From a bacterium (GTDB lineage: Bacteria > Patescibacteriota > Minisyncoccia > Phycocordibacterales > CAIZIN01): a stretch of 64,000 nt of DNA. The first letter of the stretch is position 1. Every line of letters starts with the position of its first letter. Made by a program: the position numbers and the translations under genes. The notes under the pieces are model-generated. The model made no database searches. It was not told the DNA's origin and worked only from the letters and a program-made list of their open reading frames with translations. The stretch covers positions 25,795 to 89,794 of the forward strand of contig JBAXQO010000001.1 in the NCBI GenBank assembly GCA_037131675.1, in the 5' to 3' direction. Positions 8,104-57,412 of the stretch are shown piece after piece.

Positions 8104-8215
8104 TTTAATGTACCTCCAGTTGACAATACTATTGGTTTGTATTGTTTTGTCAAATAAGAAAAAACCTTGTTCAACAGTTCTGTGTGTACAAGGTTTATAG
8201 ATATTAATATATATC

Positions 8216-8470
8216 CTAACTTTTTTTATTAATATTGAAGTGCGGCTCTGGAATCTCAGACTGACATTTTCCACAGACAATCTTTTCTTCCACTATTTTA
8301 GACGAAATGTATTGGTGGCATTCTTGACACCAAACCAATATCTTTTTGCATGAGGGACAGTGACGTTTCGAAACATCTTTGTCTGGTAAAATAATTCCGG
8401 AAGTACCGAAACCACAACTTAGACAAAAGAAACGAACGCCTATAGGATGTGTTTTTGGTATTGTATTCAT
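8216..8470 (-). CDS. Small Cys-rich zinc-ribbon protein (four CxxC pairs)
   Basis: CLSCG, CPSCK, CQEC, CGKCQ motifs in 84 aa. Confidence 0.5.
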   Translation of the reverse strand: MNTIPKTHPIGVRFFCLSCGFGTSGIILPDKDVSKRHCPSCKKILVWCQECHQYISSKIVEEKIVCGKCQSEIPEPHFNINKKS

Positions 8471-35800: not shown

Positions 35801-35838
35801 ATCTTCTTATGGTCGTAAGCTTTAACTTTTTGTTTCAT
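32821..35838 (-). CDS. leuS: Leucyl-tRNA synthetase with an embedded Nudix hydrolase domain (~residues 440-585)
   Basis: MFPYPSGQGLHVGHPRGY HIGH region, CP1 editing domain (GTGAVMAVPAHDERDWEFA), KMSKR. Extra ~150-aa insert after CP1 with Nudix box GGVNEGEDLIDAAKREVLEETGY. Total 1005 aa. Confidence 0.9.
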   Translation of the reverse strand: MKQKVKAYDHKKIESKWQKEWEKKGIYKTASSTKKPKKYVLDMFPYPSGQGLHVGHPRGYIASDVYARLMRVKGFNVLHPMGYDAFGLPAEQYAIQHKIHPRKAVEENVKTFEGQLHKIGFSYDWSRKINTTDPKYYKWTQWIFLKLYNSWYNTAKNKAEPIETLVKILEKNGNEKVSAAADLDTPIITAKEWKNMDKLAHDKFLMKYRLAYEGFSEVNWCPELGTVLANDEIVDGPDGKPVSERGGYSVVKKSLRQWFLRITAYADRLIEDLTDLDWSSHIKEIQKNWIGKSEGSEIEFLIKGIGEKIKVFTTRADTLFGVTYVVLAPEHELVQKLLTFVSNKNEVLKYIEEVKNKTEEDRVGSKGKTGVELKSIYAINPVNNEEVPVWIADYVLASYGTGAVMAVPAHDERDWEFAKKHKLPVKEVIIPERIDKRNPPVAGKQKVERQNVQAMVKNVKTGKYLCLHSKKHHWNTFPMGGVNEGEDLIDAAKREVLEETGYTNLTNAKILGGQVRAEYFAKHKDQNRVSFTSLVYFELDGDERKEISKEEQEENEILWIDQRSLNTTFMCHAEMDVWLDRVIKGVSAYTDDGVLSNSEKFNALSSEKAREEITKAVGGKLVTKYKMRDAIFARQRYWGEPIPLVHEKDGTIKSLKEKELPLTLPNVKSYEPIGTGESPLAGVKDWVKNGYETNTMPGWAGSSWYFLRYMDPLNNSKFASEKTLKYWKQVDMYVGGAEHATGHLLYSRFWHKFLFDLKLVPMKEPFKALRNQGMILGSDNRKMSKRWGNVVNPDEVVATYGADTLRVFEMFIGPFDSQLPWSTDGIIGSRRFIEKVWRIQEKISEDKKVVYSYEQTLNKTIKKVGEDIESFNFNTAISAMMILVNEMDNSPAVYKSHFEKFLQILAPFAPHMSEELWRSLGNKKSIHEVVWPKYDPKKLESDIVTIVVQVNGKLRGEMKVSRTIEEKEAFESLKDNLDIFKWIEGKEIIKVVFVPTRLINIVVKG

Positions 35839-39718: not shown

Positions 39719-40711
39719 ATGAAAAAAGTAGCAATTGTTGGTGTTGGAGCTGTTGGAACCGAGTTGGTTCGGCTGCTGGTAAAAAGGCAGTTTCCATTTA
39801 GTTCAATAGTAATATTGGCCCGTTCAGAAAGAACCGAAATCATCGACGGAGTTTCCTACCAAGTGAAGGTAGCAACCCCGGAATCATTCAACGGTATCGA
39901 TATTGCTTTCTTTGCTGGGACTGAAGGATCGAAAGGTGCTTCTCAAACTCTTGGATGGGAGGCGGTGAAAAGAGGCTGCATCGTGATTGATAACGGAGAC
40001 GACTTCAGGATGAATGAGCGGATCCCACTCGTTATCCCCGAAATCAATGCCGCAGCACTCAAGAATCACAAAGGATTCATCGCCAATCCCAACTGCAGTA
40101 CAATCATTGCTTTGATGCCCCTTGCACCTCTTCATCGAGTTGCAAAAATCAAGCGCATCATCGCATGCACATATCAGGCTGTTTCGGGAACTGGTGCGCA
40201 AGCAATTAAAGAGCTTGAAGACCAAAGCAAGGCTTGGGCGAAAAATCGACCCATGCGTGCCGAGGTATACCCGCATCAGATCGCGTTCAACGTGATTCCT
40301 TGTGTTGGATCGTTCAAGGACGAATCAGGAGAAAGCACTGAAGAGATAAAGATGCGTCGAGAGATGCATAAGATTCTTCAAGACTCTTCGATTAAGATTG
40401 CGAATACTTGTGTGCGTGTACCAGTCTTCAACGGCCATAGTATCGCGATTAATGTTGAGTTTGAAAAGATCATCGGTCCAGCCGAAGCGCGGGAAATTCT
40501 TAGACAATCGCATGGCGTGAGAGTTGTAGATAGTCCCGCAAACTCATTATATCCAATACCAATTAATGCATCAGGTCAGTTTGATGTGTTGGTGGGCAGG
40601 ATACGAAGAGATCCGAGCATTGAAAACGGTCTAATCCTTTGGTGTTCGGGCGACAACATCTGGAAAGGTGCTGCTCAAAATGCAATACAGATTGCTGAAC
40701 AGTTAATATAA
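39719..40711 (+). CDS. asd: Aspartate-semialdehyde dehydrogenase
   Basis: VAIVGVGAVG Rossmann, NPNCST active-site Cys motif. High GC relative to genome. Confidence 0.9.
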   Translation: MKKVAIVGVGAVGTELVRLLVKRQFPFSSIVILARSERTEIIDGVSYQVKVATPESFNGIDIAFFAGTEGSKGASQTLGWEAVKRGCIVIDNGDDFRMNERIPLVIPEINAAALKNHKGFIANPNCSTIIALMPLAPLHRVAKIKRIIACTYQAVSGTGAQAIKELEDQSKAWAKNRPMRAEVYPHQIAFNVIPCVGSFKDESGESTEEIKMRREMHKILQDSSIKIANTCVRVPVFNGHSIAINVEFEKIIGPAEAREILRQSHGVRVVDSPANSLYPIPINASGQFDVLVGRIRRDPSIENGLILWCSGDNIWKGAAQNAIQIAEQLI

Positions 40712-40715
40712 AACC

Positions 40716-40758
40716 CCAAGAGTTGGCGGAGAAATCCACCAACTCTTTTTTATGGATT
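40716..40758 (+). terminator. Terminator after asd
   Basis: AAGAGTTGG...CCAACTCTT stem (with internal GGA/TCC extension) followed by TTTTTTAT. Confidence 0.55.
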
Positions 40759-40870
40759 GACCAAATCCTGTTTTAGTTGTAATGTTTGGCCCACGATACC
40801 TGAGTAGGTGTCTCGTTCTTTTACAGAACAATTCAGTCAATCAACTTAAACTGAGGTACATAATAAACAT

Positions 40871-42259
40871 ATGGGGCAAAACACCCTGTTTGATAAAGTC
40901 TGGGATCTGCACACTGTGCGGAGTCTCGGTGGCCAAGATCAGATCTTGGTGGGTACGCATTTAATCCATGAGGTCACGTCTCCCCAGGCGTTTCCCATGA
41001 TCGAAGAACGCGACCTTTGCGTGCGCTTTCCGAAGCGTACGTTTGCCACGGTGGATCACATCGTGCCAACCGACGTGCGTTCGCGTCCTCTCCAGGACCC
41101 GATCGCGGAAACCATGCTCCAACACTTGGAGCGCAACACATCGAAACACAACATCGCCTTGTTCAACCTTGGAGACAAAGATCAAGGAATCGTACACATC
41201 ATCGGACCGGAATTGGGAATCACCCAACCCGGAATGGTGATCGCCTGCGGCGATAGCCACACCTCCACACACGGAGCGTTTGGTGCCATCGCCCTCGGCA
41301 TCGGAACAACTCAAATCGCATGCGTTCTGGCAACAGGATGTCTGCTTCTCGAGCGTCCGAAAGTGCGCAAGATCCAAATCGACGGTGCGCTCGGAGAAAG
41401 CGTAACTGCAAAAGACATCATTCTTGCGATCATCAATCGTTTGGGAGTCAAAGGTGGTATCGGCTTCGCTTACGAGTTTGCCGGCAGCGCCATCAGAGAG
41501 CTCGATATGGAAGCTCGCATGACGATCTGCAACATGTCGATCGAAGGCGGCGCGCAGTGCGGTTACATCAATCCGGATGAACACACCATCGAATATCTGC
41601 ATGATCGGAAATACGTGCCGAAAGGTAACAATTACCAAAAAGCAGTGACGTGGTGGCTCAGTCTCGCATCGGGACCCGACGCGGAATACGACGATATCTT
41701 CGAACTTCCCGCAGAGGAAATCGAACCTATGATGACTTATGGGATCACTCCCGGACAGTCAATCGGCGTTAGCCAAATCATCCCAATCAACGCACCACAA
41801 GATGCACTTGATTATATGCTTCTTGAAGCAGGTAAACCTCTTCTCGGAACAGAAGTGGACGTTGCTTTCATCGGCTCATGCACTGAAGGTCGCATTAGCG
41901 ACTTCCGCGAAGCGGCAAATCTGATCAAGCGATACGGACTCAAAGTTGCACCTGGCGTTACCGCCCTTGCTGTTCCTGGTTCTGAAGCCGTTCGCCGTCA
42001 GGCTGAACAAGAAGGTCTCCACAAGATCTTCATCGAATCAGGATGGCAGTGGCGTGAGGCAGGTTGCAGCATGTGTTTAGCAATGAATCCCGACAAACTC
42101 AGGGGGAGCCAGTTGTGTGCATCAAGTTCAAATCGGAACTTCAAGGGTCGGCAAGGAAGCCCAACAGGGCGTACAGTGCTGATGTCATCGTTGTCAGTTG
42201 TCGCATGTGCGACGGCTGGGAAGATCGCAGACGTTCGTGAAATCATCGGAAGGAACTAA
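40871..42259 (+). CDS. leuC: 3-isopropylmalate (or homoaconitate) dehydratase large subunit
   Basis: Aconitase-family motifs [15 protein letters not shown]. High GC. Confidence 0.9.
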
Positions 42260-42264
42260 ACACC

Positions 42265-42876
42265 ATGTTGAAAAAAATCAGACAAATCTCGGGCGGTGCT
42301 TTTCATCTCCCGGGCAACGACATCGATACCGACCGGATCATTCCGGCACGGTTCCTCAAGTGCGTGACCTTCCAAGGTCTCGGCAACCATGTCTTCGAGG
42401 ACGATCGCGCTCAGCTTAATGGGCGCCATCCCTTCGACGACAAGTCCAACAAGGGGTGCAATATCCTCGTGGTGGACGAAAACTTCGGTTCCGGCTCGAG
42501 CCGTGAACATGCAGTTCCTGCTCTCACTCAGTGGGGCATTCAGGCAATCATCGGCCTTTCGTTCGCTGCGATCTTTCGTGGCAACGCGGTCGGCAACGGC
42601 TTGGCATGCGTCACGGTGACCAAGGAAGAACACGAGTGGATCACTCGTTGTGTGACCGGCATCGGAGGAACCATCTTCCGGGTCGACTTGGAACAAATGA
42701 AAGTGCTCATGTTCCAGGGAATGCCACACGACCCTTCCTACGGCACATGCGAAATGCCGGACTCACACCGCGAAAAGCTGATTACTGGAACCTGGGACGA
42801 TATCGCGACCTGCCTCACCGCAGAAAGCGCGATCGAAGAAACGGCGGCTCGTCTGCCGTACTTCGCCGGCGTTTAA
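42265..42876 (+). CDS. leuD: 3-isopropylmalate dehydratase small subunit
   Basis: LPGNDIDTDRIIPARFLK swivel-domain motif. 5 nt after leuC stop. Confidence 0.9.
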   Translation: MLKKIRQISGGAFHLPGNDIDTDRIIPARFLKCVTFQGLGNHVFEDDRAQLNGRHPFDDKSNKGCNILVVDENFGSGSSREHAVPALTQWGIQAIIGLSFAAIFRGNAVGNGLACVTVTKEEHEWITRCVTGIGGTIFRVDLEQMKVLMFQGMPHDPSYGTCEMPDSHREKLITGTWDDIATCLTAESAIEETAARLPYFAGV

Positions 42877-44275: not shown

Positions 44276-44278
44276 TTG

Positions 44279-44365
44279 CGGAGAGAGGGAGATTCGAACT
44301 CCCGGGACCAATTAAGGTCCGGCGGTTTAGTAAACCGCTGGTTTAAACCACTCACCCATCTCTCC
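44279..44365 (-). tRNA. tRNA-Ser-like type II tRNA; anticodon loop reads UUACUAA (ACU, decoding AGU)
   Basis: Hand fold. Acceptor GGAGAGA/TCTCTCC + discriminator G as in E. coli tRNA-Ser. 3-bp D-stem. Long variable arm GGACC-TTAATT-GGTCC. T-arm GGGAG-TTCGAAT-CTCCC. A at position 34 is unusual, so anticodon call is tentative. Confidence 0.7.
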
Positions 44366-47782: not shown

Positions 47783-49237
47783 TTACCTCTCCAAATCTAA
47801 CGTTTCATCAATCCTAATCTTCTCAAAAAATTCTGGAACATGACTTACTAAAACCATTGCCCCCTGGTATTCACTAAGTGCCTTGGCGATGATTGGAAGA
47901 TGACGAAAATTTATATGGTTTGTAGGCTCATCAAGAATAAGAAGCCCCGGTTTCTGAAGAACGAGTCTGGCGAAAGCAACTAATCCTTTCTGGCCTTCAG
48001 AAAGACTTCCAATTTTAGTATTTATTAATTCCCCCGTTATCAGAAACCCAGCCGCAGTAGAACGTAAATCTTCTTCAATGTGTTTTTCCATCACACCCAT
48101 GAGTGAATCGTGAACAGTATCCTCAAAATTTAAAGTTGAAAAATCTTGTCTATAGTATCCAACTTTAACACCCTTAGTAATCATTGCACCAACTGCGGTC
48201 CCTTGAGCAAGAGATTCTAGCAATGTACTTTTACCAATACCATTTGGACCTTTCAAAAGTAAGTGTTGATTCCTCTTCAAAATTACTTTTGTTTTTCGAT
48301 GAATAGTTTTATGAGTCTTTGGATCCATAACAGTATATTCAGAAATTTCTAGAATAGTACCGAGAAGATCTTCTGGTACAGGAATTCTAAAAGGTCGAAT
48401 TGTTTTATCTTCCCTTCTAACATCAACTTTTTCCTCTTCAAGCTCTTCAGCTTTTTCTCTCATGCGTCTAGCCACCAGACGCATCTGACCACCTTTGTTT
48501 GCAAAAAAGTTTGCTTTGTCTTTATTTTCTTGTATTTCTTTTGCCAACTGAGCATTCTTGCGATTCTCTTTTTCAATTCGAGCAGAAATTTCTTTGAGTA
48601 AATCGAAATATGTACCAACATACTGTTCTACTTTCCTAGTGAAGACATCTAGGTACAAAACCCCATCTGTAAAAGAGTTCAAAAAATCAGCATCGTGAGA
48701 AATTACAATACAAGTCTTTTTATAATTTTTAATAAAGTCCGTAAGATGAGCGATTCCTTTTTTATCCAAATTATTGGTAGGCTCATCCAAAAGAAGAATG
48801 TCTGGATTTTGAATAATAGCAGATGCCAAGAGAAGTCTTGCTTGCTGTCCGCCAGAAAATGTTTTTATGATTTTGTCATGTGGAGCATGTAGATTTACCA
48901 CCTCCAAAACTTCTTCAATACGTGGGTCGATATCATAAACCTTTTTATCAAAGCATTTTTCAAAAAATTCACGAACAGTAAGAGCAAGATCCTCGCGTGG
49001 AATAACTTGCCGAGAAAGCGCGATTACACCTCTTCCACAATGAATTTCGCCGTCTTCTGGAACAAGTGCACCTGTAATCAATTTAAAAATAGTACTTTTC
49101 CCAGCACCGTTCTGGCCCATAATAGTAATCTTTGATCCTCTTCGTATAGAAAAACTAACCCCATCCAAGATGGGTTTATTGTGTCCAAATTCAAATGACA
49201 CATTATCAAATCTAACAACAACTTCTTCACGAGACAT
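47783..49237 (-). CDS. ABC-F family ATPase (tandem ABC domains, no TMD)
   Basis: Two Walker A (GQNGAGKST, GPNGIGKST), two LSGGQ signatures, inter-domain linker. Confidence 0.75.
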   Translation of the reverse strand: MSREEVVVRFDNVSFEFGHNKPILDGVSFSIRRGSKITIMGQNGAGKSTIFKLITGALVPEDGEIHCGRGVIALSRQVIPREDLALTVREFFEKCFDKKVYDIDPRIEEVLEVVNLHAPHDKIIKTFSGGQQARLLLASAIIQNPDILLLDEPTNNLDKKGIAHLTDFIKNYKKTCIVISHDADFLNSFTDGVLYLDVFTRKVEQYVGTYFDLLKEISARIEKENRKNAQLAKEIQENKDKANFFANKGGQMRLVARRMREKAEELEEEKVDVRREDKTIRPFRIPVPEDLLGTILEISEYTVMDPKTHKTIHRKTKVILKRNQHLLLKGPNGIGKSTLLESLAQGTAVGAMITKGVKVGYYRQDFSTLNFEDTVHDSLMGVMEKHIEEDLRSTAAGFLITGELINTKIGSLSEGQKGLVAFARLVLQKPGLLILDEPTNHINFRHLPIIAKALSEYQGAMVLVSHVPEFFEKIRIDETLDLER

Positions 49238-49295
49238 GTGCTACACCATAACACACAATCGCTTCTTATGCCTAATATATGCTAGGATACTTTGC

Positions 49296-50564
49296 ATGGA
49301 TACGAATCTAGAAACTGGAAAGTCTGTTTGGGACGTTGTAGTCATTGGTGGCGGACCATCTGGCATGATGGCTGCTGGACGTGCTGCAGAACGTGGCACC
49401 AAGGTTATTCTCATTGAAAAAAATGAAAACCTCGGAAAAAAACTTCTAATTTCGGGTGGGGGCCGTTGTAACTTAACCAACGCTGAATTTGATACGCGTA
49501 AATTTCTAGATAAATTTAAAGGCAGTAATAAATTCCTGTTCTCAACATTCTCAAAATGGAATGTGAAAGACACCCTAGACTTTTTTAACTCAAGAAAAAT
49601 GGAAACAAAAATTGAGGCATTTCAACGCGTGTTTCCTATTACAGACAAAGCGCAATCCGTGTTGAATGTTTTAGTAGAATATATGAAACAAGGAAATGTT
49701 ACAGTGATTTCAAATAGTGAAGTTCTGGGCTTTGAGGTAGACAATCAAAAAATAACTGCAATAAAAATTAAAGGTAAAAATAATATTTTCGCTAAGCAAT
49801 TTATTTTAGCAACAGGTGGAACCTCCCACCCAGAAACAGGTTCGACTGGCGACGGTTTTAAGTGGCTACAAAAAATTGGACACGAAATAATAGAACCCAG
49901 CGCAGCACTTGTACCAATCGCACTAAAAGATGATTGGATAAAAGATTTACAAGGTACCACCCTAGAAAAAACAAAAATTTCTATTTTCCAAAATAATGTT
50001 AAACAGGCTTCGCGTATAGGAAAAATTCTTTTTACGCACTTTGGAGTTTCAGGTCCTGCAATTCTAAATATGAGCCAGGAAGTCGGTGAGCTTTTAAAAT
50101 ATGGCGATGTTGTAATTTCATTAGATATTTTACCAGAACTAGATTATGGGCAACTTAACTTAAAACTTCAGGAAATTTTCAAAGAACATAGCAATAAAAA
50201 TTTCAAAAATAGTCTAGCGACATTAATTCCTTCATCATTTGTTCCAATTATTATCAAATTATCTGGTATTAATGGAGATACATTGAGTCATAGCGTAACT
50301 CGAGAACAAAGACTAAACTTGATACAAGTATTAAAATCCATTCCCCTGCATGTTAAAGAATTGTTGGGGGCGGAAAAAGCAATAATCACATCAGGAGGTG
50401 TAAAACCAGAGGAGGTTGACTGGAAATCGATGCATTCCAAAATATTCCCAAATTTGTTTTTAATTGGAGATATTTTAAATATTGATCGCCCATCTGGTGG
50501 CTACAGTTTACAGCTTTGTTGGACCACAGGTTTTGTGGCCGGAGATTCAGTAGAAGTGAACTAA
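49296..50564 (+). CDS. HI0933-family (BaiN-like) FAD-dependent oxidoreductase
   Basis: VVVIGGGPSGMMAAGRAA FAD motif and GGGRCNLTN signature. Start at ATG 49296 after divergent promoter region. Confidence 0.75.
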   Translation: MDTNLETGKSVWDVVVIGGGPSGMMAAGRAAERGTKVILIEKNENLGKKLLISGGGRCNLTNAEFDTRKFLDKFKGSNKFLFSTFSKWNVKDTLDFFNSRKMETKIEAFQRVFPITDKAQSVLNVLVEYMKQGNVTVISNSEVLGFEVDNQKITAIKIKGKNNIFAKQFILATGGTSHPETGSTGDGFKWLQKIGHEIIEPSAALVPIALKDDWIKDLQGTTLEKTKISIFQNNVKQASRIGKILFTHFGVSGPAILNMSQEVGELLKYGDVVISLDILPELDYGQLNLKLQEIFKEHSNKNFKNSLATLIPSSFVPIIIKLSGINGDTLSHSVTREQRLNLIQVLKSIPLHVKELLGAEKAIITSGGVKPEEVDWKSMHSKIFPNLFLIGDILNIDRPSGGYSLQLCWTTGFVAGDSVEVN

Positions 50565-51127
50565 TATTTACGAACAACCCCTTTTACAATAGCCGCTATC
50601 TTTAATTCCTCGGTTGGATATATTGGTTTGAATTTTTTATTTGCAGGTTCCAAATAAACTTTATTCCCCTCTTTTCTATAATATTTCATGGTCCAACCAC
50701 CATCTACCTCAGCAATAACAATATCTCCAACTTTTGGTTCCCCACGCCTCTCAGCTATTACTAGGTCTCCTTCTTGAATACCAGCATCAATCATTGACTC
50801 ACCTTTAACTTCCAGTAAATAAGTAGACTCTTTATGTTCTATTAAATAATTATCAATACTGATAGTATCCAACATATCTTCCTCAGCTGCGGATGGAAAA
50901 CCTGCTTCTACGAGCCCGAGAAGAGGCACTTCATCTAGACGATTATTTGGTATAAGCCTGCCTTTATTGTCTTTAGAAACCACCTCCGCTTCAACAAGTT
51001 TATCTATTAGTTTATATACAGCATTCTTTGATTTAAAACCGACCAAGTCCATAATTTCCTGATAGCTTGGCATTCTGCGATGTCGGTGATAAAAAGAAAC
51101 AATTTTATTTTTATATTCTTCAATCAT
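50561..51127 (-). CDS. lexA: LexA repressor
   Basis: N-terminal wHTH, VEAGFP Ala-Gly cleavage site, S24 peptidase domain (KGESMIDAGI...GDLVIAE) with Ser/Lys dyad. Confidence 0.8.
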   Translation of the reverse strand: MIEEYKNKIVSFYHRHRRMPSYQEIMDLVGFKSKNAVYKLIDKLVEAEVVSKDNKGRLIPNNRLDEVPLLGLVEAGFPSAAEEDMLDTISIDNYLIEHKESTYLLEVKGESMIDAGIQEGDLVIAERRGEPKVGDIVIAEVDGGWTMKYYRKEGNKVYLEPANKKFKPIYPTEELKIAAIVKGVVRKY

Positions 51128-51327
51128 AGTATAAAAGTTGAAACGAGACTAAAAGATTTCTGCAACCAACCGCTTTGGCGATTTAGTCTTTGTAATTGTT
51201 TTAAAAGAAACTTATGTCGCAAGGCCTCTTTACCGTATGAAAGACCTTTGATTATTTTAAGGTCAATCTCATTGTTGAGTTTTCGTATCTCTCCTTCGAT
51301 TGTTTTTTTGAATGTGTGACTACTCAT
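51124..51327 (-). CDS. Small ORF upstream of and overlapping lexA start (ATGA overlap); possible SOS-regulated small protein
   Basis: ATG-initiated 67-aa frame ending at TGA overlapping lexA ATG. Track version starts at GTG 51387. LexA box ~40 nt upstream of the ATG. Confidence 0.25.
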   Translation of the reverse strand: MSSHTFKKTIEGEIRKLNNEIDLKIIKGLSYGKEALRHKFLLKQLQRLNRQSGWLQKSFSLVSTFIL

Positions 51328-51364
51328 GTTTTTATAAGTTATCTTGGCTGATGTATATAGTATA

Positions 51365-51382
51365 GGTGAACAATCGTTCACC
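51365..51382. promoter_or_regulatory. Cheo-box-like LexA operator GGTGAAC-AATC-GTTCACC
   Basis: Perfect 7-4-7 inverted repeat containing GAAC-N4-GTTC, ~240 bp upstream of lexA. Confidence 0.5.
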
Positions 51383-51492
51383 GTCACTGTGGATATGTAA
51401 ACAGAACATATCTGGCGAAAAATGTAAAAAACATTTTTAAAATAATTAGATTAATGGCCGTAAAAAAGAGGTGGGATTTTATAAAATATATA

Positions 51493-52776
51493 TTATTTTA
51501 AAAAAGTAAAAAACATAGCGACAACAGCAGAAGCCATTAGGAAAAAAGTTGCCCAAATAAGCACTTTTGAAAGTGCCCCGCTTTTATGTTCTCCCATTAT
51601 TTTTTCACTACTTGCAATTTTTGCAATTATGAAAATAAGCGGAACAGCAACAATACCGTTAATAACTGCAGTAATCACCAATGCCTTCACTGGATCAATT
51701 CCGATAAAATTAATACATAGACCAACCAAGGTTGCGATGGTAATCACTCCATAAAAACCATGTGCTTTTTTCAGTTTCAAATTAAGACCTTCTCTCCAAT
51801 TAAACGCTTCCGATAAAGCATATGACGCAGATGCTGAAAGAACAGGAACTGCTAGCATGCCTAACCCAACCACCCCAATAGCAAATATTATTTTTGCCAA
51901 AACTCCAGCATATGGAAATGTTTGTACCAAAGGTTCGAGTGCTTTAGCAGCATCAGCAGCTGTGGCAATATCTGTAACACCATTACTATGAAGCACTGTT
52001 GCTGCCACCACAATCATACACCAGCAGGCAATTTGGGAAGAAAGCATCCCTAAAAAATTATCAATCCTTAGAGAACGCATAAAAGACTTTGTAAGTTTTG
52101 GCTTTCCATTATGAATCAGATGTTTTCTGTGTTCCTCTTCTACCTCTTCTGAAGCTTCCCAGAAAAACATATACGGAGAAATTGTCGTTCCAAGAACCCC
52201 TGTGATAATAAAAAAGAAAGAAAAATTAAATTCAATATGAGGAATAAAAGTTGCGTTTAAAATAACACCCCAAGGTTCACGCACAATAAAAACTGTCACA
52301 ACATAAGAGAACAAAGACAACGCCAACCACTTTAATATACGGGCATAGTTAATATAGGAAACAAAAATTTCTAATACTAAAATAACAATGGTGAAAATTA
52401 GAGTGAGAAGAATAAATGGGACAGGAAAAATCAACCCAGCCGCTGCAGCCATCGCACCAAGATCAGCGCCGATATTAATAGTATTTGCTACCAACACCAA
52501 AATAACCATAAAATACAGAACTTTTTTACTATAGTACTCTTTAACAACAGCAGCGATACCCTTTCCAGTCACTGCACCAATACGTGCACAAGCCTCTTGA
52601 ACGGCTGTCATTAGCGGAAGAAGAAATACTACAGCCCAAAGTTGGCCATAACCAAATTGAGCACCGGTTTGAGAATATGTCGCTATACCAGATGGATCAT
52701 CATCCGCTGCGCCGGTAATCAACCCAGGTCCAACAACTTTTTCCAATTTTTTTAATTTTCTTCCGAATTTAAACAC
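51493..52776 (-). CDS. NRAMP-family divalent metal transporter (MntH-like)
   Basis: GPGLITGAADDDPSGIATYSQTGAQFGY matches the Nramp DPGN region. ~11 TM helices. Confidence 0.7.
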   Translation of the reverse strand: MFKFGRKLKKLEKVVGPGLITGAADDDPSGIATYSQTGAQFGYGQLWAVVFLLPLMTAVQEACARIGAVTGKGIAAVVKEYYSKKVLYFMVILVLVANTINIGADLGAMAAAAGLIFPVPFILLTLIFTIVILVLEIFVSYINYARILKWLALSLFSYVVTVFIVREPWGVILNATFIPHIEFNFSFFFIITGVLGTTISPYMFFWEASEEVEEEHRKHLIHNGKPKLTKSFMRSLRIDNFLGMLSSQIACWCMIVVAATVLHSNGVTDIATAADAAKALEPLVQTFPYAGVLAKIIFAIGVVGLGMLAVPVLSASASYALSEAFNWREGLNLKLKKAHGFYGVITIATLVGLCINFIGIDPVKALVITAVINGIVAVPLIFIIAKIASSEKIMGEHKSGALSKVLIWATFFLMASAVVAMFFTFLK

Positions 52777-52892
52777 GAATAAAGTATATCATGACAAATA
52801 TCTTTTTGTTGTATTTATTTTGTGAACTTAGTACTTCCATAGGCAACAAAAAAACAGAGACTAATGTCTCTGTTTTTTCTAATTTTTAATAT

Positions 52893-53678
52893 TTAGAAAC
52901 CAAGAAACCGACTGAAGAAGTTAGCTATGCCGCCAAAGAAACCCTTGGGTTTTTCTTGTTTATTTTCAGTTGATGAAGCAGGTGCAACACCATGATCAAT
53001 AACTGAAGATGCTGCAATTGATGTTCCATTTACAGTACCCTGAACAACAACTATGTCATTCACCGCAACACTAGAAAGTGTTGATGTTGCATTATCTTTT
53101 TGTACAAATGCATTTGTGGCATCTACTGTATACACAACACCTCCTTTGTTAGTAACTGTTAGAGTTGTCCCACTTATAGCAGTTATATTGCCTCCAATAA
53201 CTGGCTGGCCATTGCCTTGAAAATTAGGATTTCGTTTTTGTCCATCAGGCATATTTCCTTTTACAGAAACTCCATCCCTGATATTTGTCGCAACAACATT
53301 GGTACCATCTACTTTACCTTGAACTATAATTTTATCCCCCACAACAATATTTGAAACACTAGAAGTGGCATTATCTTTGGTAACTTTTGAATTTGAGGCG
53401 TCTACAGTATATACAACACTTGTACTGGTGCCGTTTGGACGAACCTGACTATTTACAGTAATTGTTGTTCCACTTATTGAAGCAACTGTTCCAAAAACAC
53501 CAAATTGTCTGTGCACACCTACGCCTCGTTTATTATCACCACTGAAATTCCTATGAGGAGCATTCCCTGCAGTAACGGTATCAGCTAAAGCTGGTAAAGA
53601 AAAAATAAAACTAGATAAAAGTCCAGTCACCACCAACAATGACACATACTTCTTTTTCATATTATAAGATATAAACAT
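52893..53678 (-). CDS. Secreted protein with signal peptide and two ~70-aa internal repeats (DUF5666-like)
   Basis: N-terminal hydrophobic signal + ALA cleavage site. Repeats GT(V/I)ASISGTT(I/L)TV...VVYTVDA(S/T)N...V.(V/I)VQG.V(D/N)GT. Confidence 0.5.
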   Translation of the reverse strand: MFISYNMKKKYVSLLVVTGLLSSFIFSLPALADTVTAGNAPHRNFSGDNKRGVGVHRQFGVFGTVASISGTTITVNSQVRPNGTSTSVVYTVDASNSKVTKDNATSSVSNIVVGDKIIVQGKVDGTNVVATNIRDGVSVKGNMPDGQKRNPNFQGNGQPVIGGNITAISGTTLTVTNKGGVVYTVDATNAFVQKDNATSTLSSVAVNDIVVVQGTVNGTSIAASSVIDHGVAPASSTENKQEKPKGFFGGIANFFSRFLGF

Positions 53679-53934
53679 TATTTAATAACAAATTTAGACA
53701 CTTAAACATAAAGTTGAGTTTTCAACCCAGTGTCTCTCCCCTATATATACGCATTAGAAACAGAGAGAGGTGCATATGTATAATTTATATCTGATTACTT
53801 TATTATAAAAATCTAAATAAAGCCTCTACTGAAACGTATAAAAAAATATTCATGAAGAAAGTACTGTAGACTCAACATTTACAAAGACAAAACCCATTAC
53901 CGCTTGTTAAGATTGATGTATAATCAGAGTAATT

Positions 53935-54522
53935 ATGGCCTATTTCCTAAATCCCCTTATCTCACTTCTACTATCATATAAATATATTACCTTATTTTTG
54001 ATTATATTTTCTGGAGGCATTATAGTGCCATGGCCTGAAAATACTTTATTGTTAGCCACCGGAGCCTTTGCGAGCCAAGGATATCTAAACTTGGCAATAT
54101 CTTTTATAGTAGCACTGACAGCAAACATACTTGGTGATTCAATTGGCTATTATCTGACTAAAAGATGGGGATACAAAATTATCAAAGAGAGTAAAATAAA
54201 AAAATACAAGTATGTAAAACAGGCAGAAAAATATTTATTGGACCATTCAGGGATAACAATTTTTATTTCACGTTTTGTAGGAGCAATAGGACAACTTGTT
54301 AACTTTATGTCTGGGCTTATAGGTATATCATTCCGACATTTTATCCTTTTCGATATTATAGGTAATGCACTAGAAATAGGAATATTTATGGTTGCTGGGT
54401 ATCTACTAGGAAACACGTGGAGAAACTTTTTAGGAATCACTGATATTGTTGGGTGGATACTTCTAGCATTTTTTTTGATAAATATACTTATAAACTTTTT
54501 TAGAAAAATAAAAAAGACTTAG
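53935..54522 (+). CDS. DedA/SNARE-associated family membrane protein
   Basis: Length, TM layout and GDSIGYYLTKRWG pattern typical of DedA. Confidence 0.65.
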   Translation: MAYFLNPLISLLLSYKYITLFLIIFSGGIIVPWPENTLLLATGAFASQGYLNLAISFIVALTANILGDSIGYYLTKRWGYKIIKESKIKKYKYVKQAEKYLLDHSGITIFISRFVGAIGQLVNFMSGLIGISFRHFILFDIIGNALEIGIFMVAGYLLGNTWRNFLGITDIVGWILLAFFLINILINFFRKIKKT

Positions 54523-54660
54523 ATAATTGGCGTGCGGAACATCAGTTACTGTAAATGTGAGGGGCTTTCTTGTCTTTTTATCTCTTTTAAGTAATATACC
54601 TCACCAGATGGATACGGGAATGAATTCCGTATCATTGACAACAAAACAGAAACACAGGCC

Positions 54661-55968
54661 ATGAAAAAAATAATAGCTGGTATCCTTCTCACTGAAGGTA
54701 AGACAAAAGAGGTATTTGCCGTTGAGGGCGACCCTCATGCGGTATTGATTGAATCAAAAGACGACATCACTGCCGGCGATGGCGCCAAACACGACATCTT
54801 AGAAGGCAAAGCGGTGTTCGCGACTCAAACCACTTGCAACGTATTCACTCTCCTTCGGGATTGTGGAATTCCTGTGGCATTTCGTGAGCAAATTGCTCCA
54901 ACTGCATTTACCGCGGACCGCTGCACCATGTTGCCTTACGAGGTAGTGGTTCGACGCGAAGCACACGGTTCCTACCTGAAGCGTATGCCTGGCCTTGCAA
55001 AAGGTCATCTTTTTCCAAAGCTCCTTGTGGAGTTTTTCCTGAAGACAAACAATCGACGTTGGAAGGAGCATGACCTCCTCTGCGACGATCCACTTATGGA
55101 ATACGCAGACGGAAAAATACACCTATACGAACCGTCGAAACCGATCCATGGACAGAAGCCTTTTCTTTCCCTCGATGAAGACGAGGTCTTTTACTCCTTG
55201 GAATGGAAATGCTTCGATAGAATGAGGAAAATCGCCCAACGAGTGTTCCTCATCTTGGAAAAAGCTTGGCAGATTGAAGGTGGAAAGCTTGTCGACTTCA
55301 AGGTCGAGTTTGGTCTCACTAACCTGACATGCGAATTGTGTCTCGCCGATGTTATCGACAATGATTCATGGCGAGTAATAGAAAACGGATCGTATATCGA
55401 CAAACAGGTTTACCGCGATGGTGGCGATCTCAACGAAGTGATGGTGAAATATCGTCGTGTTGCCGAGGTCACAAGCCGTTTCCGTTTACCATCACAACAG
55501 ATCATCATCTGGCGCGGATCTGACAAGGACGACGTGAGTCCAGTGGTGAATGCGCTCGATCAGATGTGTGAAGGTTTCTATGGGGCCTGTCAGCGTCTCA
55601 AACTCATTACGAAAACCTGTTCTATTCACAAGGAACCGATTCGTGGTCTGAACATGCTTCACTCGCTCATTCAGGAGGTGCCAAATTCTGTAGTGATTGC
55701 TTTCATTGGGCGATCCAATGGAGCCGGCCCCACATTGTCCGCACACACAACAGTTCCAGTCATCACAGTTCCGGCGAGTTTCAAAGACTTTCCGGAAGAT
55801 GTCTGGTCTTCACTGCGCACACCTTCAAGCGTGCCGGTCACCACGGTGCTCGAACCCTCGAACGCCGCCATGGCTGCAGTTGAGATTCTAGCTCTCAACA
55901 ATCCGTTTCTTTACATGTTTCTTCGGGAACAGCTCGAAAAGCGATTGGTCAACTGCATTCCAGTCTGA
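54661..55968 (+). CDS. Bifunctional SAICAR synthetase (PurC) - AIR carboxylase (PurE-like) fusion, PAICS-like
   Basis: N-terminal EGKTKEVF...DDITAGDGAKHDILEGKA...LPYEVVVRREAHGS (PurC). C-terminal IIIWRGSDKDDVSPV...IAFIGRSNGAGPTLSAHTTVPVITVPAS (PurE fold). High GC. Confidence 0.7.
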   Translation: MKKIIAGILLTEGKTKEVFAVEGDPHAVLIESKDDITAGDGAKHDILEGKAVFATQTTCNVFTLLRDCGIPVAFREQIAPTAFTADRCTMLPYEVVVRREAHGSYLKRMPGLAKGHLFPKLLVEFFLKTNNRRWKEHDLLCDDPLMEYADGKIHLYEPSKPIHGQKPFLSLDEDEVFYSLEWKCFDRMRKIAQRVFLILEKAWQIEGGKLVDFKVEFGLTNLTCELCLADVIDNDSWRVIENGSYIDKQVYRDGGDLNEVMVKYRRVAEVTSRFRLPSQQIIIWRGSDKDDVSPVVNALDQMCEGFYGACQRLKLITKTCSIHKEPIRGLNMLHSLIQEVPNSVVIAFIGRSNGAGPTLSAHTTVPVITVPASFKDFPEDVWSSLRTPSSVPVTTVLEPSNAAMAAVEILALNNPFLYMFLREQLEKRLVNCIPV

Positions 55969-56085
55969 GTTATTCGAACACTAAACCACACTCCGCGAGG
56001 TAACTCTCGTGGAGTATTTTTTTGTTTATCACCCTCCCCCATTACCCACTCCTAATGATTGCTTTTTATCTAAATATGTGATATA

Positions 56086-57291
56086 ATGCTAAGAGACAGA
56101 AAACAGAACCTTCACATGTATACCTATCCATTACTCCAAAGAGTTTCCGAACTCTACGAAGAGGTGGAGCTCGGTAACGTACTCCTCCTCGCTTGTCAGC
56201 ACCTGCTTGAACCGCAACTGCGAATGTTCGAGCACTTACTCCAGATGGGATTGAAGCCAGAAAACTGTGTAATCGTCGGAAAGAACTATTCCACGAACAC
56301 TGAGGTTATGCAGGAGCTTAAAGCTAAGGGTTGCGTAGTAGCACCCTTCAGCCAAAAGTTTGATCCAATGCAACCATTTGATATTTGGTTTGAGGAAAGA
56401 CTTATCGCTTTTGTTAAAGCGGAAATTTCCAAACACCAGATTGAAAAATATAGCAAAGTGGTTATTCTTGACGATGGCGGCTTTATGCATCTCGTTGTCA
56501 ACGAACTCTGCAAGGACTTCACTACCCTAATTGGGGTTGAACAAACGTCGTCTGGACACCACAAAATCCAGTCTGCAAATATTCAATTTCCTTCAATTTC
56601 TGTAGCACGGTCATACCAGAAACTCATGTTTGAATCTCCCTACATAGGAATAAACGGACATGAAAAGATTATGCAGCATCTTCGGATGCGGCAAAAAAAT
56701 AATCCTAAAGTTCTGGTGATCGGTCTCGGACCTATCGGTAGACAGCTTGCTGGTCAACTTCTCATTTGTGAGAAATTCGATGGCTATGCCGTCGATCCAA
56801 AGCTTGATGAATTGCGACATCGTGGAATGGGCTCGAGAGGAGTGTTTGATTTACTCCGACCCGAACACATCCTTCAACCATGCGAGTTGAAACAAAGGCT
56901 CAAGGAATTTGATCTCATTGTTGGCACAACTGGTTCGCCAGTTCTTACCAATGAAGATATTGAAAACCTCCACCCAGAAGTTTCGCTTGTGAGTATATCG
57001 TCTTCTGATAGAGAGTTTCCAGCGGTGCCATTTAGGCATCACAAAGGAACCCTCCATCAAGATTATGTACTAGGTGCTCGCACCTTGGTAAACGGTGGTT
57101 TCCCGATCACCTTTGATGGACTGAGACATGGTATGCCTCCGCAACAAATCGAGTTAACGATAGCACTCCTTATTATTCGTCTCTTAGATGGGATAGATAA
57201 TCAATTGCAACACCTACCAAGCGTTGTCGAACAAATCCGATTAATGTGGCAGCCGGATGAAGGAGTGAATAACTGGTACAAAAAACCTTAG
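56086..57291 (+). CDS. Divergent S-adenosylhomocysteine-hydrolase-like NAD-binding protein
   Basis: LLLACQHL..., NYSTNTE, VILDDGG, VEQTSSG, VLVIGLGPIGRQLA, IVGTTGS line up with AHCY blocks (GCLHMT, NIFSTQD, ILDDGGD, EETTTGV, VAGYGDVGKG, VTTTGC). Catalytic His of the HFD block not conserved. Confidence 0.45.
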   Translation: MLRDRKQNLHMYTYPLLQRVSELYEEVELGNVLLLACQHLLEPQLRMFEHLLQMGLKPENCVIVGKNYSTNTEVMQELKAKGCVVAPFSQKFDPMQPFDIWFEERLIAFVKAEISKHQIEKYSKVVILDDGGFMHLVVNELCKDFTTLIGVEQTSSGHHKIQSANIQFPSISVARSYQKLMFESPYIGINGHEKIMQHLRMRQKNNPKVLVIGLGPIGRQLAGQLLICEKFDGYAVDPKLDELRHRGMGSRGVFDLLRPEHILQPCELKQRLKEFDLIVGTTGSPVLTNEDIENLHPEVSLVSISSSDREFPAVPFRHHKGTLHQDYVLGARTLVNGGFPITFDGLRHGMPPQQIELTIALLIIRLLDGIDNQLQHLPSVVEQIRLMWQPDEGVNNWYKKP

Positions 57292-57412
57292 CAACGGACC
57301 ATCTTGAAAAAGATGGTCCGTTTTATTATTTAGTATAGGATGTTTTTTAAGAAATTGTTGGTGATATAAACTTGAAACCCTTGAGAACTCGAGGCTTTAA
57401 AAAAATAATATG

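What the first reader, a model, noticed from the sequence alone, without database searches (positions are those of the whole stretch)
54661..57291. High-GC block encoding a PAICS-like PurC-PurE fusion and a divergent AHCY-like protein
A single 435-aa protein joins SAICAR synthetase (N-terminal) to an AIR-carboxylase/PurE-fold domain (C-terminal). This domain order matches eukaryotic PAICS and is rare in bacteria. It is followed by a protein that aligns block-by-block with S-adenosylhomocysteine hydrolase but has lost key catalytic residues. Both genes are GC-richer than the genome. No other purine-pathway genes are nearby. This suggests an acquired module acting on an adenine/AICAR-like nucleoside rather than de novo purine synthesis.
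Basis: partly seen in the sequence, partly recalled or inferred. Interest (0 to 1): 0.55.

Follow-up and report, generated by a model that had tools for sequence, protein, structure and literature searches.

The report
Acquired PAICS-type gene beside divergent AHCY-like gene
A small-genome (CPR-like) bacterium carries an intact purine-synthesis gene built like animal PAICS, probably acquired from high-GC bacteria, next to an unrelated, poorly known relative of S-adenosylhomocysteine hydrolase; the two genes are neighbours by accident, not a joint module.

Summary
Both ORFs are real, at the stated coordinates, and GC-richer than the window. GC3 is 0.515 and 0.424 against a window median of 0.268.

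**ORF A (54661-55968)** is an intact PAICS-type fusion of SAICAR synthetase and class II PurE.
- Its best solved relative is human PAICS (E 2.9e-64, 40% identity).
- It keeps all 154 columns that are at least 95% conserved in 79 bacterial homologues.
- The fusion is uncommon but not exceptional: at least 475 GTDB species encode relatives (Verrucomicrobiota, Alphaproteobacteria, many CPR lineages).
- The window copy nests with Chthoniobacterales sequences (74-76% identity).
- In CPR loci the gene is GC-richer than its flanks; in Verrucomicrobia it is not. This points to horizontal acquisition.
- Its closest relative sits in a purM-purH-purB-purCE island, so ordinary purine synthesis (AIR to SAICAR) is the best reading.

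**ORF B (56086-57291)** has a confident AHCY fold (family profile E 1.8e-17).
- It belongs to a large, uncurated, mainly CPR family.
- It keeps H55, D131, K186 and D190(E), but has Q, S and F at E156, H301 and H353.
- Three independent fusions to SAM methyltransferases suggest an SAH-hydrolase-like role.

**Pairing.** None of 163 related loci pairs A with B, and a terminator-like hairpin separates them. The "module" interpretation is not supported.

The parts
54499..54527 (+). Promoter-like site upstream of ORF A (TTTAGA-17-GATAAT); a weak consensus match only
   Evidence: One search gives 9 of 12 matches. The region holds 7 such sites against 4.6 +/- 2.1 in shuffles, so this is not significant on its own.
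54661..55968 (+). ORF A, 435 aa: PAICS-type bifunctional SAICAR synthetase / class II PurE (AIR carboxylase)
   Evidence: Both Pfam domains score above their cut-offs. Human PAICS matches at E 2.9e-64. All 154 family-conserved columns are kept.
54679..55470 (+). SAICAR synthetase (PurC) domain, about aa 7-270, including the G13-K14-T15-K16 ATP loop and the LADVIDNDSWR motif
   Evidence: The ATP-site residues of human PAICS (Gly16-Lys19) are from PMC9376930.
55495..55935 (+). Class II PurE (AIR carboxylase) domain, about aa 279-425: G286-S287-x-K289-D290, S321-I-H323-K324, G350-R351-S352-N353-G354, DVWSSLRTPS
   Evidence: Residue roles and the Lys-versus-Arg class marker come from PMC9376930 and PMC10484210.
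55990..56025 (+). Terminator-like hairpin (11 pairs, 6 G-C) plus T-run between ORF A and ORF B
   Evidence: sequence shown.
56086..57291 (+). ORF B, 401 aa: divergent AHCY-superfamily NAD-binding protein. The likely true start is M11 at 56116, as in the NCBI call of 391 aa and in the homologues.
57293..57332 (+). Terminator-like hairpin (13 pairs) plus T-rich tail after ORF B

Best explanation
The block holds two independent genes.

**ORF A** is an intact PAICS-type enzyme.
- Its C-terminal class II PurE domain carboxylates AIR directly with CO2 to give CAIR, with no need for PurK or N5-CAIR.
- Its N-terminal PurC domain ligates aspartate to CAIR with ATP to give SAICAR. These are steps 6 and 7 of purine synthesis.
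- The gene was acquired horizontally by a low-GC, CPR/Patescibacteria-like genome. The source was a high-GC lineage related to Chthoniobacterales (Verrucomicrobiota), either directly or via other CPR bacteria.
- It most likely works with purB and purH (and possibly purM) encoded elsewhere in the genome, as in related CPR bacteria where these genes are clustered.

**ORF B** is a member of a large, mostly CPR family of the AHCY superfamily.
- It most likely binds NAD, oxidises the ribose 3'-OH and cleaves S-adenosylhomocysteine or a close analogue. That would relieve product inhibition of SAM-dependent methyltransferases.
- It has its own transcription unit and no functional tie to ORF A.

**Shown:** domain content, fold, residue conservation, distribution, composition, lack of conserved pairing.
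**Inferred:** enzyme activities, donor lineage, presence of the partner pur genes, and the substrate of ORF B.
For: **ORF A: identity and integrity**
- Pfam SAICAR_synt plus AIRC.
- Full-length match to human and Bombyx PAICS, at 40% identity over 366 columns.
- Class II markers are present: S321-x-H323-K324 and G350-R-S-N-G354. They correspond to human S301/H303/K304 and G330-G334 (PMC9376930). Class I enzymes have Arg where class II has Lys (PMC10484210).
- No deviation at any of the 154 columns that are at least 95% conserved among 79 homologues.

**ORF A: horizontal transfer**
- GC3 is 0.515 against a median of 0.268.
- The best hits, at 70-76%, include several labelled Verrucomicrobiota.
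- An NJ tree nests ORF A with the Chthoniobacterales clade.
- Gene GC equals flank GC in Verrucomicrobia and Alphaproteobacteria. It exceeds flank GC by 0.02-0.13 in 12 of the 13 other CPR-type loci compared.

**ORF A: pathway role**
- The closest relative lies in a purM-purH-purB-purCE island.
- purB and/or purH are adjacent in L047, L075, L077 and L086.
- A CPR-wide PurH clade exists.
- pur genes can also sit alone in CPR contigs.

**ORF B**
- The family profile hits AHCY at E 1.8e-17.
- The AF2 model has pLDDT 91.7, and all of the top 50 PDB matches are AHCY.
- H39, D130, K179 and E183 (AHCY H55, D131, K186, D190) are invariant, G213-x-G215-x-x-G218 is invariant or near-invariant, and N336 (which I equate by eye with AHCY N346) is invariant.
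- The family has 1282 clusters (50% identity) at E <= 1e-30.
- Three independent fusions to SAM-methyltransferase domains exist (P0244, P0259, P0366).
- An MTS-type methyltransferase lies directly downstream in 4 loci.

**Independence of the two genes**
- 0 of 80 and 0 of 83 loci pair A with B.
- A terminator-like hairpin lies between them.
Against: - The rest of the genome could not be inspected, so the presence of purB, purH, purM or the early pur genes in this organism is unproven. In the window, ORF A is a solitary pur gene.
- ORF A scores far below the NCBIfam purC and purE equivalog cut-offs, so it is not a canonical bacterial enzyme.
- One phosphate-binding Ser of PAICS (S276) is Lys in ORF A.
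- The tree is a quick NJ tree without support values. CPR sequences (L005, L011, L047) branch around ORF A, so the direct donor could be another CPR bacterium.
- ORF B lacks AHCY E156 (Q), H301 (S), H353 (F, aligned by eye) and the adenine-contacting T57/E59. Its chemistry or substrate may therefore differ from SAH hydrolysis.
- ORF B is itself GC3-rich (0.424), which leaves open that A and B arrived together as one block.
Confidence: 0.7

Rival explanations
1. ORF A and ORF B form one acquired two-gene module that processes an adenine/AICAR-like nucleoside, and not de novo purine synthesis.
For: - The genes are adjacent, on the same strand, and both GC-rich compared with the window.
- The adjacency is stable in 14 contigs of this organism.
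- No pur genes lie in the 64 kb window.
- NUDIX and nucleoside deoxyribosyltransferase-like genes lie 2-5 kb downstream.
Against: - There is no co-occurrence in 80 PurCE loci or 83 ORF B-family loci.
- A terminator-like hairpin lies between the genes.
- The ORF A active sites are those of a normal PAICS.
- The nearest relative lies in a pur gene cluster.
- The ORF B family is linked to methyltransferases, not to purine enzymes.
Confidence: 0.06
2. ORF A is an orphan. The genome lacks the rest of the pathway, so the enzyme is either a recently acquired, not yet lost passenger, or it acts on a scavenged intermediate. In CPR bacteria this could be a truncated late-half pathway running from AIR or FGAM to IMP.
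For: - ORF A is solitary in the window and in L005, L070 and L089.
- CPR pur islands seen here hold only purM, purCE, purB and purH. No early-step gene lies within +/-10 kb.
- CPR bacteria are generally described as lacking nucleotide biosynthesis (PMC12455944).
Against: - Perfect retention of 154 conserved columns argues for ongoing selection.
- pur genes are dispersed in CPR contigs, so absence from 64 kb says little.
- The early genes may simply lie elsewhere.
Confidence: 0.17
3. ORF B is not an SAH hydrolase. It is either an NAD-dependent enzyme acting on a different nucleoside or nucleotide, or a non-catalytic SAH/NAD-binding protein like eukaryotic AHCYL1/2.
For: - Q replaces E156, S replaces H301 and F replaces H353. 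The adenine-contacting T57 and E59 are L and P. All are invariant or nearly so in the family.
- There is no Pfam or NCBIfam AHCY hit above cut-off.
- A NUDIX fusion (P0377) and NUDIX neighbours occur.
Against: - The core of the 3'-oxidation machinery (H55, D131, K186, D190 as E) is kept, together with the NAD motif.
- Three independent fusions and four adjacencies to SAM methyltransferases point to SAH.
- Strong conservation of about 30 invariant residues argues for catalysis.
Confidence: 0.3

Closest known systems
Animal PAICS (human 2H31/6YB8, Bombyx 4JA0): bifunctional SAICAR synthetase + class II PurE
   Same: - Same domain order and full-length collinearity, at about 40% identity.
- GKTK ATP loop and the LADVIDNDSWR motif.
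- S-x-H-K and G-R-S-N-G loops, and the DVWSSLRxPS motif.
- Predicted direct CO2-dependent AIR carboxylation.
   Different: - Bacterial, not animal.
- About 30 extra residues in the PurC domain (roughly aa 141-186).
- Ser276 is Lys, and SAHK reads S-I-H-K.
- Belongs to a bacterial clade (Verrucomicrobiota, Alphaproteobacteria, CPR).
- Octameric assembly was not tested.
Stand-alone bacterial class II PurE (Treponema denticola, 3RG8) and stand-alone PurC (e.g. Thermotoga 1KUT)
   Same: Homologous domains. The class II PurE of T. denticola scores above a class I N5-CAIR mutase (2e-5 against 9e-4 for 2FW8).
   Different: Here the two domains are fused. Similarity to the stand-alone proteins is much lower than to PAICS. 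NCBIfam purC and purE equivalog cut-offs are not reached.
S-adenosyl-L-homocysteine hydrolase (AHCY/SahH; e.g. 3X2F, 1LI4, 8AJS) and archaeal S-inosylhomocysteine hydrolase (7R3A)
   Same: - Two-domain AHCY fold (TM about 0.66).
- GxGxxG NAD site.
- Equivalents of H55, D131, K186, D190 and N346 (N346 aligned by eye).
   Different: - Only 15-21% identity.
- E156 is Q, H301 is S, H353 is F, and T57/E59 are not kept.
- Shorter (about 390 aa).
- No hit to the curated AHCY models above cut-off.
Eukaryotic AHCY-like proteins (AHCYL1/IRBIT 3MTG, AHCYL2 3GVP)
   Same: They rank among the best sequence and fold matches. They are AHCY-fold proteins that, from general knowledge, lack hydrolase activity.
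   Different: No N-terminal IRBIT-type extension. A different set of substitutions. Prokaryotic, and often fused or adjacent to methyltransferases.

Membership tests
PAICS-type bifunctional PurC / class II PurE | SAICAR synthetase domain present (Pfam PF01259 above gathering score) | tested here: met
   147.4 bits against a cut-off of 20.
PAICS-type bifunctional PurC / class II PurE | PurE/AIRC domain present (PF00731 above gathering score), C-terminal to PurC in one polypeptide | tested here: met
   68 bits against a cut-off of 30, at aa 312-424. It is a single ORF without a stop.
PAICS-type bifunctional PurC / class II PurE | Class II (AIR carboxylase) signature: Lys after the catalytic His (S-x-H-K) and a G-R-S-N-G loop, as opposed to class I S-A-H-R | tested here: met
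   S321-I-H323-K324 and G350-R-S-N-G354. The marker is described in PMC10484210 and PMC9376930.
PAICS-type bifunctional PurC / class II PurE | Phosphate/ribose-binding G-S-x-S-D loop of the AIRc site | tested here: inconclusive
   The loop reads G286-S287-D-K289-D290. The second Ser (human S276) is Lys, and these positions vary across the bacterial family.
PAICS-type bifunctional PurC / class II PurE | Catalytic activity: AIR + CO2 to CAIR, then CAIR + Asp + ATP to SAICAR | not testable with these tools
   Needs an enzyme assay or complementation.
Canonical bacterial PurC and class I PurE (NCBIfam equivalogs TIGR00081, TIGR01162) | Score at or above the curated equivalog cut-off | tested here: not met
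   77.1 against 189.9 bits for purC, and 64.4 against 149.6 bits for purE.
Adenosylhomocysteinase (AHCY) | Match to curated AHCY models above cut-off (Pfam AdoHcyase / AdoHcyase_NAD; NCBIfam ahcY) | tested here: not met
   No Pfam AHCY hit. NCBIfam gives 19-20 bits against cut-offs of 275-498.
Adenosylhomocysteinase (AHCY) | AHCY two-domain fold | tested here: met
   AF2 pLDDT 91.7. The top 50 Foldseek PDB hits are all AHCY or AHCY-like, with probability 1.00. The family profile hits AHCY at E 1.8e-17.
Adenosylhomocysteinase (AHCY) | NAD-binding GxGxxG with an acidic residue after beta-2 | tested here: met
   G213-L-G215-P-I-G218. D237 is nearly invariant.
Adenosylhomocysteinase (AHCY) | Full catalytic set: H55, D131, E156, K186, D190, H301, H353 (human numbering, from general knowledge) | tested here: not met
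   Kept: H39, D130, K179, E183. Changed: Q153, S306 and F339 (the last aligned by eye).
Adenosylhomocysteinase (AHCY) | SAH hydrolysis activity with tightly bound NAD | not testable with these tools
   Only indirect support from methyltransferase fusions.
Two-gene functional module / operon (ORF A + ORF B) | Conserved adjacency or co-occurrence in other genomes | tested here: not met
   0 of 80 PurCE loci and 0 of 83 ORF B-family loci show the pairing.
Two-gene functional module / operon (ORF A + ORF B) | Co-transcription | tested here: inconclusive
   A 117-147 bp spacer holds a terminator-like hairpin. No expression data are available.

The most novel reading that the evidence does not exclude
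Two readings remain open.

1. The ORF B family (at least 1,282 clusters at 50% identity, no curated model) may be a CPR-typical AHCY-fold enzyme. Its rebuilt active site (Gln/Ser/Phe in place of Glu156/His301/His353, with no adenine-contact residues) could perform chemistry or use a substrate different from classical SAH hydrolysis.
2. The PAICS-type gene may belong to a horizontally spreading "late-half" purine module (purM-purCE-purB-purH). CPR bacteria might use it to turn a scavenged intermediate into IMP, without a full de novo pathway.
Probability: 0.25. Interest if true: 0.6.

Novelty: new variant of a known kind. Interest (0 to 1): 0.33.

Why it matters
- PAICS-type fusions with class II PurE are presented in reviews as an animal or eukaryotic feature (PMC10912719, PMC10484210). 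Here they turn out to be native to Verrucomicrobiota and Alphaproteobacteria, and repeatedly transferred into CPR bacteria. CPR bacteria are usually described as unable to make nucleotides.
- This bears on how ultra-small symbionts patch their metabolism by gene transfer. It may also bear on the origin of animal PAICS.
- The ORF B family is a large AHCY-fold family with no curated model. If it is the SAH-clearing enzyme of CPR bacteria, it fills a housekeeping gap. If it is not, it is a new NAD-dependent nucleoside enzyme.
- Neither point depends on the two genes being a module, and they are not one.

Tried and rejected
- **Assembly chimera: rejected.** The same VTT-PurCE-AHCY-like order occurs in 14 contigs, with eight assemblies from different samples shown.
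- **Mobile-element insertion: no evidence.** No flanking direct repeats, integrase or full tRNA target were found. The weak tRNA-like Rfam hit at 58302-58358 is not called by ARAGORN.
- **Conserved neighbourhood of ORF B: none.** After clustering 743 neighbour ORFs from 83 loci, the best cluster (an ABC-F ATPase) occurs in only 6 of 83 loci and reflects local synteny.
- **Decay of ORF A: rejected.** It deviates at 0 of 154 conserved columns.
- **Linking the window's genome to purH/purB elsewhere: failed.**
  - The genome is not among the GTDB hits.
  - Candidate NCBI PurH clusters carry no names or locus tags.
  - One candidate (P0401) comes from an unrelated metagenome assembly.
- **Literature searches.** Searches for bacterial PurC-PurE fusions, and for AHCY in CPR/Patescibacteria, found nothing specific.
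- **AFDB fold search.** It was not available.
- **HcgC/Shikimate_DH hits.** These weak Pfam hits of ORF B only reflect the Rossmann domain.
Full report
**Observation.** The window is low in GC (0.37 overall; median gene GC3 0.268). It encodes housekeeping genes typical of a small CPR/Patescibacteria-like genome: DnaK/DnaJ/GrpE, RpoA, ribosomal protein S4, several aminoacyl-tRNA synthetases, LexA, Nramp, and NUDIX hydrolases. At the stated coordinates lie two plus-strand ORFs of 435 aa (54661-55968) and 401 aa (56086-57291). Both are compositional outliers, with GC3 of 0.515 and 0.424. They rank 3rd and 5th of 66 genes. The same gene order is found in 14 contigs, with eight assemblies from different samples (Logan, ENA, JGI) shown, so the junctions are real.

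**ORF A.**
- Pfam finds SAICAR_synt (E 7.6e-43) at the N-terminus and AIRC (E 8.6e-19) at the C-terminus.
- The best solved relatives by far are human PAICS (2h31, E 2.9e-64) and silkworm PAICS (4ja0, E 1.1e-59). Both are collinear over the whole protein. Stand-alone PurC chains score E 6e-29 or weaker, and stand-alone PurE chains only about 1e-5.
- Identity to human PAICS is 40% over 366 aligned columns.
- Residues that form the AIR-carboxylase site of human PAICS are G273, S274, S276, D277; S301, H303, K304; and G330-R-S-N-G334 (PMC9376930). In ORF A they are G286, S287, K289, D290; S321, H323, K324; and G350-R-S-N-G354. Only the second phosphate-binding serine differs.
- Lys after the catalytic His marks class II enzymes. 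Class I mutases have Arg there (PMC10484210).
- The ATP loop G-K-T-K (G13-K16) and the LADVIDNDSWR motif of the synthetase are present.
- ORF A matches the consensus at all 154 columns that are at least 95% conserved among 79 bacterial homologues. The gene is intact and under selection.
- It does not reach the NCBIfam purC or purE equivalog cut-offs. This fits a PAICS-type enzyme and not a canonical bacterial one.

**Distribution and origin of ORF A.**
- A search of 5.8 billion proteins gave 2,704 hits. All 120 best hits carry both domains, and several are labelled Verrucomicrobiota or named as the bifunctional enzyme by JGI.
- A scan of one genome per GTDB species found at least 475 relatives. 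These include Chthoniobacterales and Akkermansiaceae (Verrucomicrobiota) and Xanthobacteraceae/Pseudolabrys (Alphaproteobacteria). There are single hits in Polyangiaceae, Tepidisphaerales and Gammaproteobacteria.
- Many CPR lineages are also represented: Staskawicz-, Vogel-, Taylor- and Giovannonibacteria, Paceibacterota, Saccharibacteria and Gracilibacteria.
- The fusion is therefore uncommon but far from unique.
- In Verrucomicrobia and Alphaproteobacteria the gene has the GC of its flanks (0.59-0.65). There it sits alone among housekeeping genes.
- In 12 of the 13 other CPR-type loci compared, it is 0.02-0.13 richer in GC than its flanks.
- A quick NJ tree rooted on the two animal sequences places ORF A with the Chthoniobacterales clade, next to CPR copies L011, L047 and L005. 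Other CPR copies branch elsewhere, which implies several transfers. The tree has no support values, so the immediate donor (a verrucomicrobium or another CPR bacterium) is open.
- No repeats, integrase or tRNA target mark the insertion.

**Pathway context of ORF A.**
- The closest relative (P0002, 76% identity) lies in a purM-purH-purB-purCE island of GC 0.53 within a GC 0.42 contig.
- The PurH of that island belongs to a large clade, at 60-93% identity. Its named members are Paceibacterota, Taylorbacteria and Parcubacteria.
- purB and/or purH also adjoin purCE in L047, L075, L077 and L086.
- Elsewhere in CPR contigs, purCE (L005, L070, L089) or purH (L181) stand alone among unrelated genes. 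A solitary purCE is therefore not evidence that the partners are missing.
- Within the 64 kb window there is no other pur gene (tblastn; Pfam scans). The rest of the genome could not be examined.
- The CPR islands seen hold only late-step genes. No purF, purD, purN or purL lies within +/-10 kb. This keeps a truncated-pathway reading alive as a minority view.

**ORF B.**
- Alone it gives no Pfam hit above cut-off and only 19-20 bits to NCBIfam ahcY models.
- It has 324 close relatives. The few named ones are from Patescibacteria, Minisyncoccia or an unclassified bacterium MAG, and JGI sometimes labels them S-adenosylhomocysteine hydrolase.
- A profile of 29 members hits AHCY chains at E 1.8e-17.
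- An AF2 model (pLDDT 91.7, pTM 0.90) matches only AHCY or AHCY-like structures in the top 50 (TM about 0.66, 15-21% identity).
- An exhaustive profile search finds 3,569 cluster representatives, 1,282 of them at E <= 1e-30. This is a large family without a curated model.
- The following positions were mapped onto human AHCY numbering from the HMMER alignment plus my own count.
  - Kept: H55 (H39), D131 (D130), K186 (K179), D190 as Glu (E183), and GxGxxG.
  - Invariably replaced: E156 by Q153, and H301 by S306.
  - The adenine-contacting T57 and E59 are L and P.
  - By eye, N346 is kept as N336 and H353 is replaced by F339. This last region was not aligned by HMMER.

**Function of ORF B.**
- Neighbourhood analysis of 83 loci shows no conserved partner.
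- Domain fusions are informative. Of six long members among the best 150, three carry C-terminal SAM-dependent methyltransferase domains of different types (P0244, P0259, P0366). One has an N-terminal NUDIX domain, and one has histidine-kinase/receiver domains.
- An MTS-type methyltransferase lies directly downstream in four loci.
- This points to S-adenosylhomocysteine, the product and inhibitor of methyltransferases, as the ligand.
- I therefore favour (about 0.5-0.6) an SAH-hydrolase-like role. A sizeable alternative (about 0.3) is different chemistry or a different substrate.

**Are A and B a unit?**
- No relative of B lies within 10 kb of any of 80 PurCE loci. No PurCE lies near any of 83 ORF B-family loci.
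- The closest relatives of B (72% and 64% identity) sit in unrelated contexts.
- An 11-pair hairpin with a T-run follows ORF A, and a 13-pair hairpin follows ORF B.
- ORF B probably starts at M11 (56116), as in the NCBI gene call and in its homologues. That leaves a 147 bp spacer.
- The raised GC3 of ORF B resembles that of its nearest relatives, which come from GC 0.42-0.46 CPR genomes. It may itself be a xenologue, and a joint arrival of A and B from another CPR bacterium cannot be excluded. Nothing indicates a shared function.

**Verdict.**
- ORF A is a new member of a known kind, a bacterial PAICS-type enzyme.
- ORF B is a divergent variant of the AHCY superfamily.
- Interest is moderate to low for the block as described. 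There is some value in the CPR-wide AHCY-like family, and in the spread of late purine genes into CPR genomes.

Noticed in passing
window 39719-42876 (+): A second GC-rich island on the minority strand. It holds aspartate-semialdehyde dehydrogenase (GC3 0.43), an aconitase-family large subunit (462 aa, GC3 0.56) and a small subunit (203 aa, GC3 0.68; LeuCD/HacAB-like). These are the highest GC3 values in the window, so this is probably another horizontally acquired biosynthetic block.
   Followed up: partly
window 32821-35838 (-): The leucyl-tRNA synthetase (1005 aa) carries a NUDIX domain (aa 462-565, E 1.3e-12) inserted between its editing and catalytic parts.
   Followed up: no
window 44278-44365 (-): ARAGORN calls a tRNA-Ser with anticodon ACT (A at the wobble position). 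From general knowledge this is unusual for bacteria.
   Followed up: no
window 2627-3670 (-) and 3802-4809 (+): Two divergently arranged class I W/Y-type aminoacyl-tRNA synthetase genes lie side by side. The second has raised GC3 (0.415), so it may be a xenologue.
   Followed up: no
window 6982-8280 (-): A chorismate mutase type II domain is fused to a SAM-dependent methyltransferase domain in one 432-aa ORF.
   Followed up: no
window 58302-58951: There is a weak, truncated tRNA-like Rfam hit (58302-58358, 30.8 bits) that ARAGORN does not call. It is followed by two short minus-strand ORFs (67 and 71 aa) that look by eye like the two halves of one split gene, possibly a pseudogene.
   Followed up: no
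window 59557-62695 (-): A run of nucleotide house-cleaning or salvage-type genes lies downstream of the finding: NUDIX, a nucleoside 2-deoxyribosyltransferase-like protein, an unknown 247-aa protein, an alpha/beta hydrolase, and a second NUDIX. ORF B relatives are also flanked by or fused to NUDIX in some genomes.
   Followed up: partly
L011 465-6430; L075 9953-15883; L077 6586-11299; L086 9977-14660; L047 1-2156: CPR contigs carry compact islands of late purine-pathway genes only (purM, purCE, purB, purH). The islands are GC-richer than their flanks. L075 has a serine recombinase about 5 kb upstream.
   Followed up: partly
L089 7071-16008 compared with window 47783-55968: In a Giovannonibacteria contig, purCE is flanked by an ABC-F ATPase, an amine-oxidase/HI0933-like flavoprotein and a VTT/DedA protein. 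These are the same kinds of neighbours as in the window, even though the two PurCE proteins are only 53% identical. This is either residual synteny or coincidence.
   Followed up: no
P0317 (778 aa) and P0377 (514 aa), relatives of ORF B: AHCY-like domains are fused to a HisKA/HATPase/receiver module (P0317) and to an N-terminal NUDIX domain (P0377). I did not check whether these are true fusions or gene-call artefacts.
   Followed up: no
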